Shown here: in pieces, positions 41,053 to 56,627 of the stretch
Layout of the letters: every line of letters begins with the position of its first letter
Numbering within the stretch: the stretch's first letter is position 1
UHGV virus genome: UHGV-0272730
Source of the DNA: a virus
Direction: 5' to 3' (one strand)
Length of the DNA: 64,000 nt
Translations under genes and position numbers: made by a program
The notes under the pieces: model-generated
Database searches by the model: none
What the model saw: the letters and a program-made list of their open reading frames with translations, nothing else
What the model was told of the DNA's origin: nothing

Positions 41053-41369
41053 GACTCACCTCTCATGTTTTTGTAAAGGATAAAGCTTCTGTCATGAACG
41101 ATACTTGTAGATACTGCAAAGTTACTTTCAAGCATCTGTTTGTTTGGATTGTAGAAGCTTTTTTTAAACTCGTCAAGCGCAAACTGGTGATGTTGTGGAA
41201 GACCTTTTACACAAACCTTTATTGTGATTGCTGCTGCAACCTTTCCAGTCAGTTCTTCTTTAGCTGCTACTAAAATTTTGTTGAGGAACTTATGACCATC
41301 TTCAGTCTTCTTGATGTTCTCCCAACGTTCTTCTAAGACAATGTTGATGTTCATTTCTTTGATTTTCAT
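41034..41369 (-). CDS. hypothetical protein
   Basis: 111 aa ORF. Confidence 0.4.
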   Translation of the reverse strand: MKIKEMNINIVLEERWENIKKTEDGHKFLNKILVAAKEELTGKVAAAITIKVCVKGLPQHHQFALDEFKKSFYNPNKQMLESNFAVSTSIVHDRSFILYKNMRGESCKHIG

Positions 41370-41383
41370 AGTCTTCTCCAGAA

Positions 41384-41406
41384 ATTAAAAAGGCTCCCGT
41401 AGGAGC
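41384..41406 (-). terminator. rho-independent terminator downstream of NAMPT-like gene
   Basis: Minus strand hairpin GGCTCCTACGGGAGCC followed by TTTTTAATTT. Confidence 0.55.
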
Positions 41407-41422
41407 CTCTTATCATATACTT

Positions 41423-43204
41423 TTAAAGCTGCTTGTCAATATTATTTCGAATATCACCAAGAGTTGTGTAACCAAACTGCTCAGAGTCACTAAAGACTAA
41501 ACGTAAAGCACAAGCTGGGTGGTCAAGTACATCTGCAAAACTCTGGAATCCATAGCCATCTACAGCTTTCAGCTTATCACCATCCCACATAGGTGCTACA
41601 CCACCAAAGGCAGATTTCTTAACACCACTATCTGTTTTAGGGTCTTTTGCAAGCATAATCTCTTTACCACCAATGCTTGCAAGAGTTGCTTTGACAGCAA
41701 ATGCAAAGGTGTCACGAGTCATGTACTGGTAAGTGTAAGAGCCTACACCAAACACTACGTTAGAGCTTGCAAAACCCATTTCATACAGACGCTTCAGGAT
41801 TTCGTTTGCACGTTCCAGAGTGATAGAGTCACCATAGATAAGGCCGATATGCTCATCCAGTACCTTAAACCCTTTAGAGTTAATAGTTCCACCAAAGATG
41901 TTGTACAGTGTCTTAATAGCTCCATCAATCTCAGCTACAGGACGTGTTACAACGTTTGCAGAACCAACCATATAAGCATTTTTCAACATCACTGTATCAG
42001 CAACTTCAAAGTCTTCTCTGTCAACAACCATTTCGTAGCCTTCTGACAGTAGCCATCCAGCAATACCATAGTTGATGTTCTCAAGCTTCATGTTCAGAAC
42101 AGCATTCAACATTGTGTCACTGGCTTCCAGCTTGCTTAGGTGCTCGTAATAAGCCTTCTTAGCACATTCTAAGTGGATTGCTTTATAACCTGTGACAATA
42201 TGTACAGGGTCTCCAGAGTCAGGGCGAATTACCAGTTTGCCATCACGTTCCATAATTTCTTTACGAAGTGCTGGTAAGATTTCTGACACAGTTCTCCAGA
42301 AGTTATAAGTATCTGAAACAATGCTTGCAATACCTGTTGGGTAAGTTTCTGTTAAGAAACGACGGAAGGTTTGTAACTCACCTTTAAAGCGTCTTTCTTC
42401 TTCAATCAACTCATTACCACCTTCCCAAGCAATGTTTGCACACATTACAGAGTGCTCAGTGGCTGGTACAGAACTACCAATATCAGAGATTGGGTAGGAC
42501 TGTCCATAGATTCGTTTAGCCGTGTATACAGCAGGGAAGCTATCAGTCCCTTTAAAGCTGGTTAAGTGACCTACAGCGTTAAATGCGTCATCAGTAAAGC
42601 CGGACATACCACGCATAGCAAAATCATGGCACTGATAAGGTAAATGTAAGTCATTGTCACAAGTAAGGTCAGCCCACTTCTTACAGATGCGTTTGTAATG
42701 CAATGCAATAGTTGCAATGGTGCAAGCCTTCCAAATTTCAGCAGAGAAAGCATCTTCCAGATAACCTGCTACCCAATGAAAACCTGAAACAGTGTTCTGA
42801 AAGACAATCATCGGGACACGCATTGGAACAACTGTGCCTTCTTCTACAGCGTATACTTCAACTGGTAGATAACCTAAGTCGTGAAGTGCTTCCCAATGCT
42901 CTCGACCGATAGCATCTTTACCCAGAACACCATTCATGACTTCTAAGATTTCATCAATGGCTTCTTTTTTATCACGTTCAAAGAAAGTGGCATTCCAGTG
43001 GTCTATCAAGTAATCTTTAACAAAACGTTGAATACCAAAAGCCACTACACCGTCAATTGCTAAGGGGCTGTTAAACCATTTATCACTGCGTGGTGTCAGG
43101 TTCAACATAAGATATTGCGTAGCATCTGGATACTGATATATATGTGATGCCTTGTAAGCATCTGCATTAAGACCTGCTGTTACTGCGTAAAGTGACTTAC
43201 TCAT
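41423..43204 (-). CDS. nicotinamide phosphoribosyltransferase-like (NAMPT/NadV family) enzyme
   Basis: 593 aa; NAPRTase-family motifs SFKGTDS, VIRPDSGDP, IYGDSIT; longer than typical NAMPT. Confidence 0.65.
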   Translation of the reverse strand: MSKSLYAVTAGLNADAYKASHIYQYPDATQYLMLNLTPRSDKWFNSPLAIDGVVAFGIQRFVKDYLIDHWNATFFERDKKEAIDEILEVMNGVLGKDAIGREHWEALHDLGYLPVEVYAVEEGTVVPMRVPMIVFQNTVSGFHWVAGYLEDAFSAEIWKACTIATIALHYKRICKKWADLTCDNDLHLPYQCHDFAMRGMSGFTDDAFNAVGHLTSFKGTDSFPAVYTAKRIYGQSYPISDIGSSVPATEHSVMCANIAWEGGNELIEEERRFKGELQTFRRFLTETYPTGIASIVSDTYNFWRTVSEILPALRKEIMERDGKLVIRPDSGDPVHIVTGYKAIHLECAKKAYYEHLSKLEASDTMLNAVLNMKLENINYGIAGWLLSEGYEMVVDREDFEVADTVMLKNAYMVGSANVVTRPVAEIDGAIKTLYNIFGGTINSKGFKVLDEHIGLIYGDSITLERANEILKRLYEMGFASSNVVFGVGSYTYQYMTRDTFAFAVKATLASIGGKEIMLAKDPKTDSGVKKSAFGGVAPMWDGDKLKAVDGYGFQSFADVLDHPACALRLVFSDSEQFGYTTLGDIRNNIDKQL

Positions 43205-43220
43205 ATTTTATCTCTCTCTC

Positions 43221-43712
43221 TTAGTTATGTCTTGCAAACTCACCATGAAGTTCTATTCGCTTTTTAATTACAGCTTCTTTTGCTTCTTCTACCGTTTTAA
43301 ATCTTCCACAAAAGTATTCTTTATGGTAAAGCATGACTCTTGCTTTGTAAAGACCTGTTTGTTTACAAAAACTTACACCCTTCACACCAGTTTTATTATT
43401 CTTGTATATACCCCTATTCCTCTGATTTTGTGACTTTGTGCTAAGTCTTAAATTATCCAACTTATTATTAGATTTATCAAGGTCTATGTGGTCTATCTCA
43501 TATCCACTTGGTATCTCACCTCCAGACATAATCCATGCAATATTATGTGCATAGTACCTCTTCTTATTTATCTGGACTTGGATATAACCCTTCTTAGACC
43601 TTGTGCCAGCCACATTACCAGCAATAGCGGTACTGCAAAGGGTTACTCTCCAAATTAATAAACCTGTATCTGGTTCATATATTAGGTATCTTTCAAAATA
43701 ACCCTTATTCAT
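43221..43712 (-). CDS. HNH homing endonuclease with AP2 DNA-binding domain
   Basis: 163 aa; IDHIDLDKSNNKLDNLRLSTKSQNQRN (HNH) and GVKGVSFCKQTGLYKARV (AP2-like). Confidence 0.65.
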   Translation of the reverse strand: MNKGYFERYLIYEPDTGLLIWRVTLCSTAIAGNVAGTRSKKGYIQVQINKKRYYAHNIAWIMSGGEIPSGYEIDHIDLDKSNNKLDNLRLSTKSQNQRNRGIYKNNKTGVKGVSFCKQTGLYKARVMLYHKEYFCGRFKTVEEAKEAVIKKRIELHGEFARHN

Positions 43713-43720
43713 ACTGTTAC

Positions 43721-44623
43721 CTAATCAATGGTTGCTACAGTCACTTGACCGTAATGTGTTAAGCCACGGTCTTTAGCTTCACCTAAAGTGTTTGTAGTGT
43801 AGATATGGTCAATACCATTGTCAAGTAAGCTTTCAACACCTTTAGAGAAAATGCCATGAGTTACATAGAGTTCCACACGTTTTGCACCTGCTTCACGAAG
43901 ATGTTTAGCTGCTTCTATGAAGGTTCGACCGCCATCACAGATATCGTCGAGAATCATAACAGTTTTATCGGTCAAATCAACATCATCAAGGATTCGCATA
44001 CCAGTAATTTCACCAGTCTTAAGGTTACGCATTTTAGACATTGTGATATATGGTTTATCCACCTCTTTAGCAGTCTCTTCAGTCTTCTTAGCTGCACCTG
44101 CATCTGGGGCTACCAAGAAATCAATGCGTGGGTCACTTGCAAAGTGTGCTGCTACATCTTTTTGCTTCATGCCCTGAAAGCACTTAAATAAGTTTTCTGC
44201 AACATTGCTGTGAGGGTCAAGAGCACATACTGCATCAAAGCCCATTGCATTAACGAGGTTGGCAAAAGCTTTCAGTGCTGCTGAATCACCTTTGAACATA
44301 TGTCGGTCATATCGAGCATTCGGTAAGAACCCGAAAACAACGGTTTTCATCGCTGATTTATGTGGAACAAGACTGTCAACGGCATCCTTAGCCAAAGCTA
44401 ATGCAAACAGTGTATCTTTATCATATCCCTGCACAGTAAGTATAACATTGTCAATCTTACCAGCATTACGCTCAGTAAACTTAACAAAATCTTCAGAGAA
44501 GTTTCCACCAATTTCTCCAGATGGGAATTGGATGATATTAAATTTTTCTGTGTGGAAGAATTTCTCTTGTGCGGTGACAACGACTTCAATAACAGTTTTC
44601 ATAGTTTTCTCTCTCTCAATCAA
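43721..44623 (-). CDS. ribose-phosphate pyrophosphokinase-like (PRPP synthetase family) enzyme
   Basis: 300 aa; NARYDR (Prs YARQDR-like) and PRTase motif ILDDICDGGRT. Confidence 0.65.
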   Translation of the reverse strand: MIEREKTMKTVIEVVVTAQEKFFHTEKFNIIQFPSGEIGGNFSEDFVKFTERNAGKIDNVILTVQGYDKDTLFALALAKDAVDSLVPHKSAMKTVVFGFLPNARYDRHMFKGDSAALKAFANLVNAMGFDAVCALDPHSNVAENLFKCFQGMKQKDVAAHFASDPRIDFLVAPDAGAAKKTEETAKEVDKPYITMSKMRNLKTGEITGMRILDDVDLTDKTVMILDDICDGGRTFIEAAKHLREAGAKRVELYVTHGIFSKGVESLLDNGIDHIYTTNTLGEAKDRGLTHYGQVTVATID

Positions 44624-44894
44624 AGGTTATGTTTGTTACTGCCATTGCAGATTTGCATTTTGCAGGGTCTACAACGTGATAAAGTACACTACAGTTACCT
44701 GTGCTGTCTGGTACAGGTTTAACCCATTGTTGCTTGACAGTTGGTTCGCCTAAGTCTTTGTAAGAACCATCTGTAAAGTTGTTTACCATCTCAAGTGCAA
44801 TTGGCTCTGGAACATGACCACGTATCATGTACATTTCACAACCATTACCTCCTTCACTGACTAATGGTAAAATCTCCCACTTTTCTTTAGCCAT
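44616..44894 (-). CDS. hypothetical protein
   Basis: 92 aa ORF overlapping downstream gene start. Confidence 0.4.
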   Translation of the reverse strand: MAKEKWEILPLVSEGGNGCEMYMIRGHVPEPIALEMVNNFTDGSYKDLGEPTVKQQWVKPVPDSTGNCSVLYHVVDPAKCKSAMAVTNITFD

Positions 44895-45402
44895 TATAAG
44901 TTGCCCTATAAACTGTCTCGAACTTCAACAGGAGAGATATTGCCAAATCTGTATAGTTGTTGTCAAGCACATCTGGCATATTATTTTTGATATATTTCTC
45001 TTGCTCTTCATAGGTCATCTTAGGGATACTTAGGAGGCTATCTCCTTGCTTCTGGTTATCAGTTTTAGTTTGGATAAACCAGTTTGCACAGTGATATTCA
45101 CCACCTTTTGTAACAGGTTTGTGATGACCTAATGTAAATGTTTGCTTACCCGTATACCTGCAAAGATTGTTCAGTGTTGCAATGGTGTTCTTCACAACAC
45201 ACCATTCATACAGGTTATCTATTGTGTAGTGTGGGTAATAACGGACAAGTGCTCTTTCACGGAAGTTATCACGATTCCAAAGAACCATGTGATTAGAATT
45301 TGAAGGGTCATATTTGTGGGAGTCTATAAACTCTTGACGCTCATCAAAGCTGAGTCTTAGAACTGACATTGCAACCGAACGTTTCAGGTTTGACAGATAC
45401 AT
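44887..45402 (-). CDS. possible HNH-family endonuclease
   Basis: 171 aa; GHHKPVTKGGEYHCANWF segment. Confidence 0.35.
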   Translation of the reverse strand: MYLSNLKRSVAMSVLRLSFDERQEFIDSHKYDPSNSNHMVLWNRDNFRERALVRYYPHYTIDNLYEWCVVKNTIATLNNLCRYTGKQTFTLGHHKPVTKGGEYHCANWFIQTKTDNQKQGDSLLSIPKMTYEEQEKYIKNNMPDVLDNNYTDLAISLLLKFETVYRATYNG

Positions 45403-45453
45403 TTTACCTCCAAAATAAAAAGGGAACCTTTACAGTCCCCTTATAGTATCTGT

Positions 45454-55608: not shown

Positions 55609-56106
55609 TCAAGCATAATTTGCTTTCATTACCTTATGGATTCTTTTTTCAGCATCTTCATAAGTTTCTTTAGTAATAAACTTAATTGCTGCAATATTGG
55701 CATTGTAGAAGAGCCTGAGCTTCGAGTCAATCCTTTTTGTCATTACATCGAATTTATGTTGAAGGTTTGCTTCACCATAGACTAGACCACCTTTTGTGTA
55801 GTAGGTTTGAATAATGTAAAAATCAAAAGATTCTTTTCCAAAGCTTTCAATATCTTTTTTAATATACTCAGAAGAGGTTTCGTAAGTCACCCAATCACTC
55901 TCCTTAGTGACTACCTTCTTCCGAGTCTTCCCAGCAACTTTTCTTTTTGTCACACTGTTAAGCTGTTTCTTTCCGATATAATATTGTCCAGTCTTCTTAC
56001 AGTGCACTAAATAGACAAAGCCAAAATGTTTAGTGGGGTCAACTTCCCCACATAAAGATACCCAATGACCGTAGGTAGGGCAATTGCCAAATCCTTTAAT
56101 CTTCAT
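55609..56106 (-). CDS. GIY-YIG-type homing endonuclease (putative)
   Basis: 165 aa; FVYLVHCKKTGQYYIGKK resembles the GIY-(10)-YIG motif. Confidence 0.45.
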   Translation of the reverse strand: MKIKGFGNCPTYGHWVSLCGEVDPTKHFGFVYLVHCKKTGQYYIGKKQLNSVTKRKVAGKTRKKVVTKESDWVTYETSSEYIKKDIESFGKESFDFYIIQTYYTKGGLVYGEANLQHKFDVMTKRIDSKLRLFYNANIAAIKFITKETYEDAEKRIHKVMKANYA

Positions 56107-56627
56107 TCATAAGCTTCTCCGTGATTTGAAAACTCTTTATGTAGTTCTTCTCTTTTCTTTTTGACAACTGATTCAGCCTCAGTGATAGAGTCAAATAAAC
56201 CTAGATGGTAGCATACTTTATTATGCTTGACTTGTGCAGCCCATCTACCTCTTTGCTTGTGGTAATATACACCCTTCACACCAGACTTATTATCTTTTCT
56301 TTTGACTGCATTGCAGTTGTTGTCTGACCTGCTACACTCTCTCAAATTGTCGAACCAGTTGTCGTGCCTGATACCATTCTTGTGGTCAACAAATTTTGGG
56401 AGGTAGCCTTTCATATACAAGAATGCCAGTCTGTGTGCTGCATATCTTTTTCCGAAGAGTTTTATATAGATATAACCACTATGGTGTTTAAGACCTGCTA
56501 CTGAGCCAGCTTTGGCCTTACCTCTTCTACCAACTAACCAAGTAAAGACCCCTGTTTCGGGGTCATAGTGCAGGTATTCTTTAAGAGTTTGTTGAGTTAA
56601 CATTTGGTGTCCACCCATACTTATCAA
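56103..56627 (-). CDS. HNH homing endonuclease with AP2 domain
   Basis: 174 aa; VDHKNGIRHDNWFDNLRECSRSDNNCN and GVKGVYYHKQRGRWAAQV; paralogue of 43221..43712. Confidence 0.6.
   Translation of the reverse strand: MISMGGHQMLTQQTLKEYLHYDPETGVFTWLVGRRGKAKAGSVAGLKHHSGYIYIKLFGKRYAAHRLAFLYMKGYLPKFVDHKNGIRHDNWFDNLRECSRSDNNCNAVKRKDNKSGVKGVYYHKQRGRWAAQVKHNKVCYHLGLFDSITEAESVVKKKREELHKEFSNHGEAYE

What the first reader, a model, noticed from the sequence alone, without database searches (positions are those of the whole stretch)
41423..44623. NAMPT-like and PRPP-synthetase-like genes paired and split by a homing endonuclease: candidate NAD+ reconstitution module
A 593 aa NAMPT/NadV-family enzyme (41423-43204) and a 300 aa Prs-family enzyme (43721-44623) are co-oriented and separated only by an HNH-AP2 endonuclease gene. 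Phage NAD+ salvage and reconstitution pathways have been described as countering NAD+-depleting defences (Thoeris, SIR2-type, DSR). A Prs-like plus NAMPT-like pair matches the described two-enzyme pathway in which the Prs-like protein is an ADP-ribose pyrophosphokinase and the NAMPT-like protein transfers nicotinamide onto ADPR-PP. Sequence alone cannot distinguish this from ordinary PRPP synthetase plus NAMPT. The extra length of the NAMPT-like protein is unexplained. A dedicated terminator follows the pair.
Basis: partly seen in the sequence, partly recalled or inferred. Interest (0 to 1): 0.7.

Follow-up and report, generated by a model that had tools for sequence, protein, structure and literature searches.

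The report
Known phage NAD+ rebuilding operon (NARP1)
This is the already-described two-enzyme phage pathway (Adps + Namat, "NARP1") that rebuilds NAD+ from ADP-ribose and nicotinamide to defeat NAD+-depleting bacterial immunity, here in a Felix O1-like phage almost identical to the phage in which it was discovered, with a selfish homing-endonuclease gene wedged between the two genes.

Summary
A strong hairpin terminator follows (41388-41411).

The window is a Felixounavirus. NARP1 was discovered in the Felixounavirus Bas63, genes 79-80. The window proteins are 96% (Adps) and 98% (Namat) identical to those genes.

The NAMPT-like protein carries the published Namat signature, GSYTYQYMTRD. Every published ligand-contact residue of the SPbetaL1 Namat crystal structure is conserved or conservatively replaced. 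The Prs-like protein keeps the catalytic Lys and fails every NCBIfam model curated for a specific Prs.

Its caveat that sequence cannot distinguish the two readings is wrong.

The extra length comes from two lineage-specific insertions shared with Bas63. One is an ~88-aa, confidently folded alpha/beta subdomain with no detectable fold relative.

The HNH gene is a free-standing homing endonuclease. It is present in 62 of 213 related genomes and replaces a conserved spacer hairpin.

Novelty: already known. Interest: low.

The parts
43721..44602 (-). adps: ADP-ribose pyrophosphokinase (Prs-family), 293 aa from ATG 44602. The maximal ORF from TTG 44623 gives 300 aa.
   Evidence: 96% identical (281/293) to Bas63 gp79. 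100% identical to a 293-aa protein of phage bumzen. Pfam Pribosyltran + Pribosyl_synth. Passes only the broad TIGR01251 subfamily model and fails all specific Prs models, e.g. 97 bits against a cutoff of 297. 34% identical to SPbetaL1 Adps, with catalytic K162 aligned to K190.
43221..43712 (-). Free-standing HNH-AP2 homing endonuclease gene inserted in the adps-namat spacer.
   Evidence: HNH_3 E 2e-19 over the full profile; AP2 E 5e-4, below cutoff. phrog_99 E 5e-68. PADLOC 'HEase'. Present at this site in 62 of 213 related records; absent in Bas63. Replaces a conserved hairpin.
41423..43204 (-). namat: nicotinamide ADP-ribose transferase (NAMPT-like), 593 aa.
   Evidence: 98% identical (581/593) to Bas63 gp80. 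Best PDB sequence match is SPbetaL1 Namat 9w5w/9w5x at E 4e-128, against about 1e-41 for human Nampt. Best fold match is 9w5x, TM 0.95 normalised to the target. All 21 contact residues conserved or conservatively replaced.
41711..41743 (-). Namat selectivity-clamp helix (SCH) signature GSYTYQYMTRD (aa 488-498).
   Evidence: Matches the published motif GS-X-Phi-X-Phi-X-Phi-TRD with aromatics at positions 3 and 7 (PMC12774641). True Nampts have GAQTYQRNTRD (H. ducreyi NadV) or GGALLQKVDRD (Xcc) at this position.
43073..43087 (-). Namat selectivity-clamp loop (SCL) segment SDKWF (aa 40-44), of the K42-W43 type.
   Evidence: Identical to Bas63. The paper states that when Lys occupies the third position the next residue stacks on adenine, as in Bas63.
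41924..42187 (-). Lineage-specific inserted alpha/beta subdomain of Namat (aa 340-427), function unknown.
41388..41411 (-). Intrinsic-terminator-like hairpin plus U-run downstream of namat.
   Evidence: dG -16.6 kcal/mol, z -4.05.
44887..45402 (-). Conserved upstream neighbour (171 aa, Bas63 gp77 homolog) with an HNH-like motif. Probably in the same transcription unit; role unknown.
   Evidence: phrog_3500 E 2e-91 and a weak match to HNH phrog_2214 at E 4e-6. 40-42% identical homologs lie just upstream of adps in distant relatives.
44616..44894 (-). Small conserved ORF (92 aa, Bas63 gp78 homolog) between the 171-aa gene and adps.
   Evidence: phrog_4726 E 6e-60. Overlaps the upstream gene by 8 nt and ends 13 nt before the adps ATG.
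45420..45442 (-). Upstream terminator-like hairpin that would bound the transcription unit on its 5' side.
   Evidence: dG -14.1 kcal/mol, z -2.5.

Best explanation
The locus is the NARP1 anti-defence operon of a Felix O1-like phage. When a host NADase (SIR2-, TIR- or SEFIR-type) cleaves NAD+ into ADP-ribose and nicotinamide, Adps uses ATP to pyrophosphorylate ADP-ribose to ADPR-PP. Namat then joins ADPR-PP to nicotinamide and regenerates NAD+ directly, without NMN and without host salvage enzymes. Namat uses a Nampt-type catalytic core plus an adenine-stacking clamp (K42/W43 and Y490/Y494) that selects ADPR-PP over PRPP. The 163-aa gene between them is a selfish, free-standing HNH-AP2 homing endonuclease gene. 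It inserted into the 45-bp spacer and replaced a conserved hairpin, while leaving both enzyme genes and the namat ribosome-binding site intact. Shown here: orthology, motifs, gene order, and the presence/absence polymorphism of the endonuclease gene. Shown elsewhere for the near-identical Bas63 genes: the in vivo phenotype and ADPR-PP production. Shown elsewhere for the SPbetaL1 homologs only: in vitro chemistry and structure. Inferred: that this phage's proteins do the same, and that the endonuclease is active.
For: The window is a Felixounavirus. Bas63 (a Felixounavirus) genes 79-80 define NARP1. Their deletion sensitises the phage to SIR2-HerA, the effect persists in a pncC nadR double-deletion host, and ADPR-PP appears only with the genes present. 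Identity is 98% for Namat and 96% for Adps. The SCH signature and SCL are present and identical to Bas63. All 21 SPbetaL1 ligand-contact residues, the catalytic His, and Adps K162 are conserved or conservatively replaced. PDB sequence and fold searches rank Namat structures above Nampt. The motif separates Namat from true Nampts. The Adps-like protein fails every specific Prs model. HNH domain and polymorphism.
Against: No enzyme from this phage, or from Bas63, has been assayed in vitro; Bas63 Adps did not purify. The window's Namat and Adps are only 43-48% and 34% identical to the biochemically characterised SPbetaL1 enzymes. Namat retains residual PRPP-dependent NMN synthesis in vitro, so some canonical Nampt activity is not excluded. 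The effect of the HNH insertion, and of losing the spacer hairpin, on expression is untested.
Confidence: 0.93

Rival explanations
1. The pair is an ordinary PRPP synthetase plus Nampt (NadV) that makes NMN for host-dependent NAD+ salvage, as nearly all GenBank records annotate it.
For: Pfam, PHROG and NCBIfam names and the public annotations say Prs and NAMPT. Namat can make NMN from PRPP in vitro at about half the human Nampt activity.
Against: Bas63 counter-defence is independent of host PncC and NadR. An Adps homolog gave no measurable product when tested for Prs activity. Namat makes only NAD+ when both donors are offered. The SCH aromatic signature is absent from true Nampts. The Adps-like protein scores far below every specific Prs cutoff.
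Confidence: 0.04
2. The HNH insertion has uncoupled or impaired the operon, so in this phage NARP1 is weakened or non-functional.
For: The insertion removes a spacer hairpin conserved in all 7 HNH-less genomes examined, and it changes the spacing between the Shine-Dalgarno run and the namat start codon.
Against: Both enzyme ORFs are full length and 96-98% identical to functional orthologs. The GAGAGAGAG run before the namat ATG is kept. The same arrangement persists in 62 sequenced phages across two genera, including Felix O1 itself.
Confidence: 0.05
3. The middle gene is a functional NARP1 accessory, like the Macro-domain phosphatase Adpp or the RyR-domain glycosidase RyDEP that other phages insert between adps and namat.
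For: Accessory enzymes are known to sit between adps and namat in other phages.
Against: The protein is a full-length HNH_3 plus AP2-like protein with no Macro or RyR match. A 40%-identical paralog sits at an unrelated site in the same genome. Presence/absence at an otherwise identical site is the pattern expected of a homing endonuclease gene.
Confidence: 0.02

Closest known systems
NARP1 of Escherichia phage JohannRWettstein (Bas63), genes bas63_0079 and bas63_0080 (MZ501086.1)
   Same: Same genus and same genomic position (between the nrdG-side small genes and rIIA). Adps is 96% and Namat 98% identical. The SCL, the SCH and both Namat insertions are identical.
   Different: Bas63 has a 45-bp spacer with a GC hairpin and no HNH gene. 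Bas63 carries an extra gene (0081) after namat that this window lacks.
SPbetaL1 Adps and Namat (OQ921341.1; PDB 9w5w, 9w5x), the biochemically and structurally characterised NARP1
   Same: Same two-gene order, catalytic residues and adenine clamp. The fold matches at TM 0.95 normalised to the target.
   Different: Only 34% (Adps) and 43-48% (Namat) identity. SPbetaL1 Namat is 491 aa and lacks the 11-aa and ~88-aa insertions. Its SCL uses Arg40 directly, where this protein has Lys42-Trp43. The genes overlap with no spacer gene.
Canonical Nampt/NadV (human NAMPT, Xanthomonas Nampt 7yqo, H. ducreyi NadV 9ke8; NARP2 Nampt of phage KVP40)
   Same: Type II phosphoribosyltransferase fold, catalytic His, and nicotinamide and ribose-phosphate contacts.
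   Different: These lack aromatic residues at SCH positions 3 and 7. They use PRPP and make NMN, and they pair with Nmnat rather than Adps.
Free-standing intergenic homing endonuclease genes of phages (T4 mobE/seg type; SPbeta YosQ-like HNH)
   Same: A small HNH gene lies between two conserved genes, is co-oriented with them, and is sporadically present among close relatives. Diagnostic substitutions sit immediately beside the insertion.
   Different: Cleavage activity and the target site have not been determined for this enzyme.
Extended NARP1 operons (NARP1-AP with Macro-domain Adpp; DyoEdafos NARP1 with RyDEP)
   Same: A third gene is inserted between adps and namat.
   Different: In those operons the third gene is an ADPR-handling enzyme that feeds the pathway. 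Here it is a mobile endonuclease with no predicted metabolic role.

Membership tests
Namat (NARP1 nicotinamide ADP-ribose transferase) | Nampt-like catalytic core: nicotinamide and ribose-phosphate contacts and the catalytic His (SPbetaL1 D13, Y15, F189, R192, D215, A242, H245, R306, D308, G360, D361) | tested here: met
   All map to identical residues: D15, Y17, F195, R198, D221, A248, H251, R327, D329, G458, D459. Residue list from PMC12774641.
Namat (NARP1 nicotinamide ADP-ribose transferase) | [quoted passage not shown] | tested here: met
   GSYTYQYMTRD at aa 488-498. True Nampts show Q/R or A/K at these positions. Phi3 is Met rather than the commoner Asn or Val, as in Bas63.
Namat (NARP1 nicotinamide ADP-ribose transferase) | SCL contributes an adenine-stacking residue (Arg at position 3, or Lys/Tyr followed by the stacking residue) | tested here: met
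   K42-W43, identical to Bas63, which the paper cites as the Lys-type example.
Namat (NARP1 nicotinamide ADP-ribose transferase) | Encoded next to an Adps-clade gene (within 10 genes) | tested here: met
   adps lies one gene upstream on the same strand. Criterion.
Namat (NARP1 nicotinamide ADP-ribose transferase) | Makes NAD+ from ADPR-PP + nicotinamide and prefers ADPR-PP over PRPP | not testable with these tools
   Shown in vitro only for SPbetaL1, P. foliorum and DyoEdafos enzymes. Inferred here from 98% identity to Bas63 gp80.
Adps (NARP1 ADP-ribose pyrophosphokinase) | Prs-family fold with the catalytic Lys (SPbetaL1 K162 = B. subtilis Prs K197) | tested here: met
   Pribosyltran + Pribosyl_synth domains. 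K162 aligns to K190.
Adps (NARP1 ADP-ribose pyrophosphokinase) | Belongs to the phage Adps clade, separate from cellular Prs | tested here: met
   96% identical to Bas63 gp79, one of the Adps query sequences used to build the published Prs/Adps tree. Closer to SPbetaL1 Adps (95 bits) than to any solved Prs (at most 69 bits). Below the cutoff of every specific Prs NCBIfam model. No tree was built here.
Adps (NARP1 ADP-ribose pyrophosphokinase) | Pyrophosphorylates ADPR to ADPR-PP and has no Prs activity | not testable with these tools
   Shown in vitro for SPbetaL1 Adps. For Bas63 the evidence is in vivo only: ADPR-PP detected by MS depends on genes 79-80.
Free-standing HNH homing endonuclease | HNH nuclease domain plus a DNA-binding module | tested here: met
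   HNH_3 matched over 1-46 of 46 profile positions, E 2e-19. The AP2 match is below the Pfam cutoff (20.9 bits against 33.3). phrog_99 E 5e-68.
Free-standing HNH homing endonuclease | Sporadic presence at one precise site among otherwise collinear relatives | tested here: met
   62 of 213 records carry it. Junctions are identical in 6 HNH+ genomes and the empty site is conserved in 7 HNH- genomes. It is also present in a Suspvirus at 89% nt identity, where Namat is only ~76% aa identical.
Free-standing HNH homing endonuclease | Cleaves the endonuclease-less allele and is copied into it | not testable with these tools
   Only indirect evidence: substitutions in the Shine-Dalgarno spacer and namat codons 2-3 co-segregate perfectly with the gene.
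NARP2 (Nampt + Nmnat) | Nampt-clade enzyme without the aromatic SCH, paired with an Nmnat gene and lacking Adps | tested here: not met
   The aromatic SCH is present and Adps is adjacent. No Nmnat is annotated in the part of the collinear Bas63 genome examined, record positions 38000-87100. The window itself was not exhaustively scanned for Nmnat.

The most novel reading that the evidence does not exclude
The ~88-aa alpha/beta subdomain inserted in the Felix O1-type Namat (aa 340-427) is confidently folded and conserved across Ounavirinae-like phages. It has no detectable sequence or fold relative, and it is not discussed in the two NARP1 papers I searched for it. It could be a functional add-on rather than a neutral decoration, for example a regulatory or partner-docking module that tunes NARP1. 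Other Namat lineages carry unrelated inserts at the same site, which marks it as an insertion hot spot.
Probability: 0.2. Interest if true: 0.4.

Novelty: already known. Interest (0 to 1): 0.15.

Why it matters
It matters mainly as a correct annotation. Hundreds of Felix O1-like phage records, including therapeutic candidates, still label these genes 'ribose-phosphate pyrophosphokinase' and 'nicotinamide phosphoribosyltransferase'. They are in fact the Adps/Namat counter-defence pathway against SIR2, TIR, SEFIR and DSR-type NAD+ depletion. Knowing a phage carries NARP1 helps predict its host range on strains with such defences. The endonuclease polymorphism and the uncharacterised Namat subdomain are small additions. 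They could be used to ask whether homing helps spread anti-defence alleles, and whether the subdomain modulates activity.

Tried and rejected
1. I hypothesised that the cluster of Namat differences from Bas63 in residues 1-34 is a co-conversion or target-immunity tract linked to the HNH gene. Comparing 6 HNH+ and 7 HNH- genomes rejected this for nt 34-100: HNH-less phages BPS17L1, REP8 and EC6 share the window haplotype there. Only the Shine-Dalgarno spacer and namat codons 2-3 co-segregate with HNH.

3. I looked for Macro (Adpp) or RyR (RyDEP) accessory domains in the middle gene and in four flanking genes. None was found.

4. I looked for a published structural definition of Adps versus Prs. 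None is in the library, so Adps membership rests on orthology, the catalytic Lys and failure of the specific Prs models.

5. PADLOC gave only trivial PRTase-domain matches for Adps.

6. Two accession guesses (MZ501111, MZ501085) were wrong before Bas63 was found at MZ501086.
Full report
**Observation.**
The region holds three tightly packed, co-oriented minus-strand ORFs:
- a Prs-like ORF at 43721-44623 (300 aa from a TTG);
- a 163-aa ORF at 43221-43712;
- a 593-aa ORF at 41423-43204.

Profile searches leave no doubt about the families.
- The 593-aa protein matches phrog_448 'nicotinamide phosphoribosyl transferase' at E 1e-201 and NCBIfam NF006629 at 471 bits. It also matches Pfam NAPRTase and NAMPT_N.
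- The 163-aa protein has a full-length HNH_3 match (E 2e-19) and a sub-threshold AP2 match.
- The Prs-like protein has Pribosyltran and Pribosyl_synth domains and matches phrog_619 at E 2e-97.

The Prs-like gene most likely starts at ATG 44602, giving 293 aa. That ATG follows a GAGAGAGAG run. The TTG overlaps the stop codon of the upstream gene. The 293-aa product is 100% identical to a protein of phage bumzen and matches the Bas63 annotation.

A 10-bp GC-rich hairpin with a U-run lies 12 nt after the stop of the 593-aa gene, at 41411-41388. Its dG is -16.6 kcal/mol with z = -4.05. A second terminator-like hairpin at 45442-45420 lies upstream of two further small genes. The transcription unit is therefore probably five genes, not a dedicated pair.

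**What phage this is.**
The 4.5-kb region is 92-97% identical to more than 200 Felix O1-like phages of Escherichia, Salmonella, Shigella and Citrobacter, including Felix O1 itself. rIIA lies immediately downstream. The window is collinear with Escherichia phage JohannRWettstein (Bas63, MZ501086.1) over about 50 kb.

**What the pair is.**
NARP1 was discovered in Bas63 genes 79-80 (bioRxiv 10.1101/2024.02.11.579819).
- Deleting the two genes made Bas63 about 20-fold more sensitive to SIR2-HerA and deepened NAD+ depletion.
- The protection persisted in a pncC nadR double-deletion host.
- ADPR-PP was detected only when both the genes and the defence system were present.
- The chemistry was shown in vitro with homologs from SPbetaL1: ADPR + ATP gives ADPR-PP (Adps), and ADPR-PP + nicotinamide gives NAD+ (Namat).

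The window proteins are 281/293 (96%) identical to gp79 and 581/593 (98%) identical to gp80, without gaps. This is orthology within one genus.

**Independent tests of Namat membership.**
The structural paper on SPbetaL1 Namat (PMC12774641) defines a Nampt-like catalytic core plus a 'selectivity clamp'. The clamp consists of a selectivity-clamp loop (SCL) and a selectivity-clamp helix (SCH). [quoted passage not shown]
- The window protein reads GSYTYQYMTRD at aa 488-498 and SDKWF in the SCL. Both are identical to Bas63.
- At the same position, bona fide Nampts read GAQTYQRNTRD (H. ducreyi NadV, 9ke8) and GGALLQKVDRD (Xanthomonas Nampt, 7yqo). The motif therefore discriminates.
- All 21 published ligand-contact residues and the catalytic His map to identical or conservative residues. 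The only changes are R40 to K42, S190 to A196, A362 to S460 and F392 to Y490, and all four are shared with Bas63.
- PDB sequence search ranks 9w5w/9w5x first at E 4e-128, against 1e-41 to 7e-52 for the human/rodent and Xanthomonas Nampts (H. ducreyi NadV scores 3e-105). A 100% tblastn match confirmed these entries as SPbetaL1 Namat.
- An AlphaFold2 model (pLDDT 92.9) matches the Namat crystal structures best, with TM 0.95 normalised to the target.

**Adps membership.**
No structural definition of Adps versus Prs is available in the library. Membership therefore rests on four points:
- 96% identity to Bas63 gp79;
- conservation of the catalytic Lys, SPbetaL1 K162 aligned to K190;
- adjacency to Namat, which is true of 97% of the published Adps clade;
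- the NCBIfam result, in which the protein passes only the broad TIGR01251 subfamily model and falls far below every specific Prs model.

It is closer to SPbetaL1 Adps (95 bits, 34% identity) than to any solved Prs (at most 69 bits).

**The extra length.**
Relative to SPbetaL1 Namat (491 aa) and to ~495-aa homologs, the window protein has an 11-14-aa insertion around aa 259-278. It also has an insertion of about 88 aa at aa 340-427. Both are identical in Bas63, so they are compatible with NARP1 function in vivo.

**The middle gene.**
Bas63 has only a 45-bp spacer between genes 79 and 80. Among 213 related records, 62 carry the HNH gene at this site and the rest do not.

All seven HNH-less genomes examined share a spacer with a GC hairpin (GGGGC-loop-GCCCC, dG about -11.5 kcal/mol). 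The hairpin is followed by AUUUUGAGAGAGA and the namat ATG. In all six HNH-bearing genomes the hairpin is replaced by 'GTAACAGT + 492-nt ORF', and the purine-rich ribosome-binding run is kept.

The only substitutions that co-segregate perfectly with the gene are in the Shine-Dalgarno-to-ATG spacer and namat codons 2-3 (Thr2 to Ser). A larger cluster of differences from Bas63 at nt 34-100 is an independent mosaic haplotype.

The same HNH gene, at 89% nt identity, sits at the same site in phiSUSP1. That phage belongs to a different genus, and its Namat is only ~76% identical. A 40%-identical paralog lies elsewhere in this window (56103-56627) at a site that is empty in Bas63.

Two distant relatives with Adps about 45% identical have adps and namat directly adjacent. 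All of this fits a free-standing homing endonuclease gene. It does not fit an accessory enzyme such as the Macro-domain Adpp or the RyR-domain RyDEP that other phages place between adps and namat.

**Mechanism, and what is inferred.**
Shown here: orthology, motifs, gene order, terminators, and the endonuclease presence/absence polymorphism.

Shown elsewhere: the in vivo phenotype and metabolite for the 96-98% identical Bas63 genes, and the chemistry and structure for the 34-48% identical SPbetaL1 enzymes.

Inferred: this phage's Adps and Namat rebuild NAD+ from ADPR and nicotinamide during infection of hosts with NAD+-depleting defences; the HNH insertion does not impair this; and the endonuclease is active in homing.

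**Verdict.**
This is the type lineage of a pathway described in 2024, so the finding is already known and of low interest. The small residual points are the uncharacterised Namat subdomain and the endonuclease polymorphism in an anti-defence operon.

Noticed in passing
window 56103-56627 (-): A second HNH-AP2 homing-endonuclease paralog (174 aa, 40% identical to the one at 43221-43712). It occupies a ~500-bp insertion that Bas63 lacks at the corresponding site.
   Followed up: partly
window ~48625 (corresponds to Bas63 L004:9828-10570): Bas63 nrdD is annotated as a two-piece CDS interrupted by an element that carries a homing endonuclease gene (bas63_0068). The window lacks this ~740-bp element, so its nrdD appears uninterrupted.
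   Followed up: partly
window 41369-41423 (corresponds to Bas63 L004:17511-17857): Bas63 has an extra 114-aa gene (bas63_0081) between namat and the next gene. In the window that space holds only the terminator hairpin.
   Followed up: no
window 44887-45402 (-): A 171-aa protein just upstream of adps carries an HNH-like motif (GHHKP..GG..H..NW....DN) and gives a weak HNH PHROG match. Homologs at 40-42% identity hold the same position in distant relatives L017 and L018. Whether it is linked to NARP1 or merely syntenic is unknown.
   Followed up: partly
Empty-site spacer in HNH-less relatives (Bas63 L004:15629-15673; L011-L016): A GC hairpin followed by AUUUU is conserved between adps and namat, with an invariant stem and a variable loop. 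It may be an attenuator or RNA-stability element, and it is lost in every HNH-bearing genome.
   Followed up: partly
window 43105-43171 (namat nt 34-100): A dense cluster of substitutions (8 amino-acid changes within residues 1-34) separates two namat 5' haplotypes among Felixounaviruses, independently of HNH presence. This suggests recombinational mosaicism.
   Followed up: yes
Proteins P0067, P0070, P0086, P0102 and others: Enterobacteriaceae genomes (Klebsiella, Cronobacter, Kosakonia, Phytobacter), on contigs up to 6.3 Mb, encode 496-aa homologs at 46-48% identity. These carry the Namat-type aromatic SCH signature (GSFTYQYNTRD), which suggests bacterial or prophage NARP1 copies. Their neighbourhoods were not examined.
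   Followed up: no
Proteins P0098, P0108, P0091: Other Namat lineages carry unrelated inserts of 45-92 aa at exactly the same position as the Felix O1-type subdomain. The site is therefore an insertion hot spot in Namat.
   Followed up: no
L010 (phiSUSP1, KT454805.2): The HNH gene is better conserved across genera (89% nt identity over the 751-bp junction query (HNH gene plus ~120-130 bp of each flanking gene)) than the flanking namat (~76% aa). This is consistent with horizontal spread of the endonuclease gene.
   Followed up: partly
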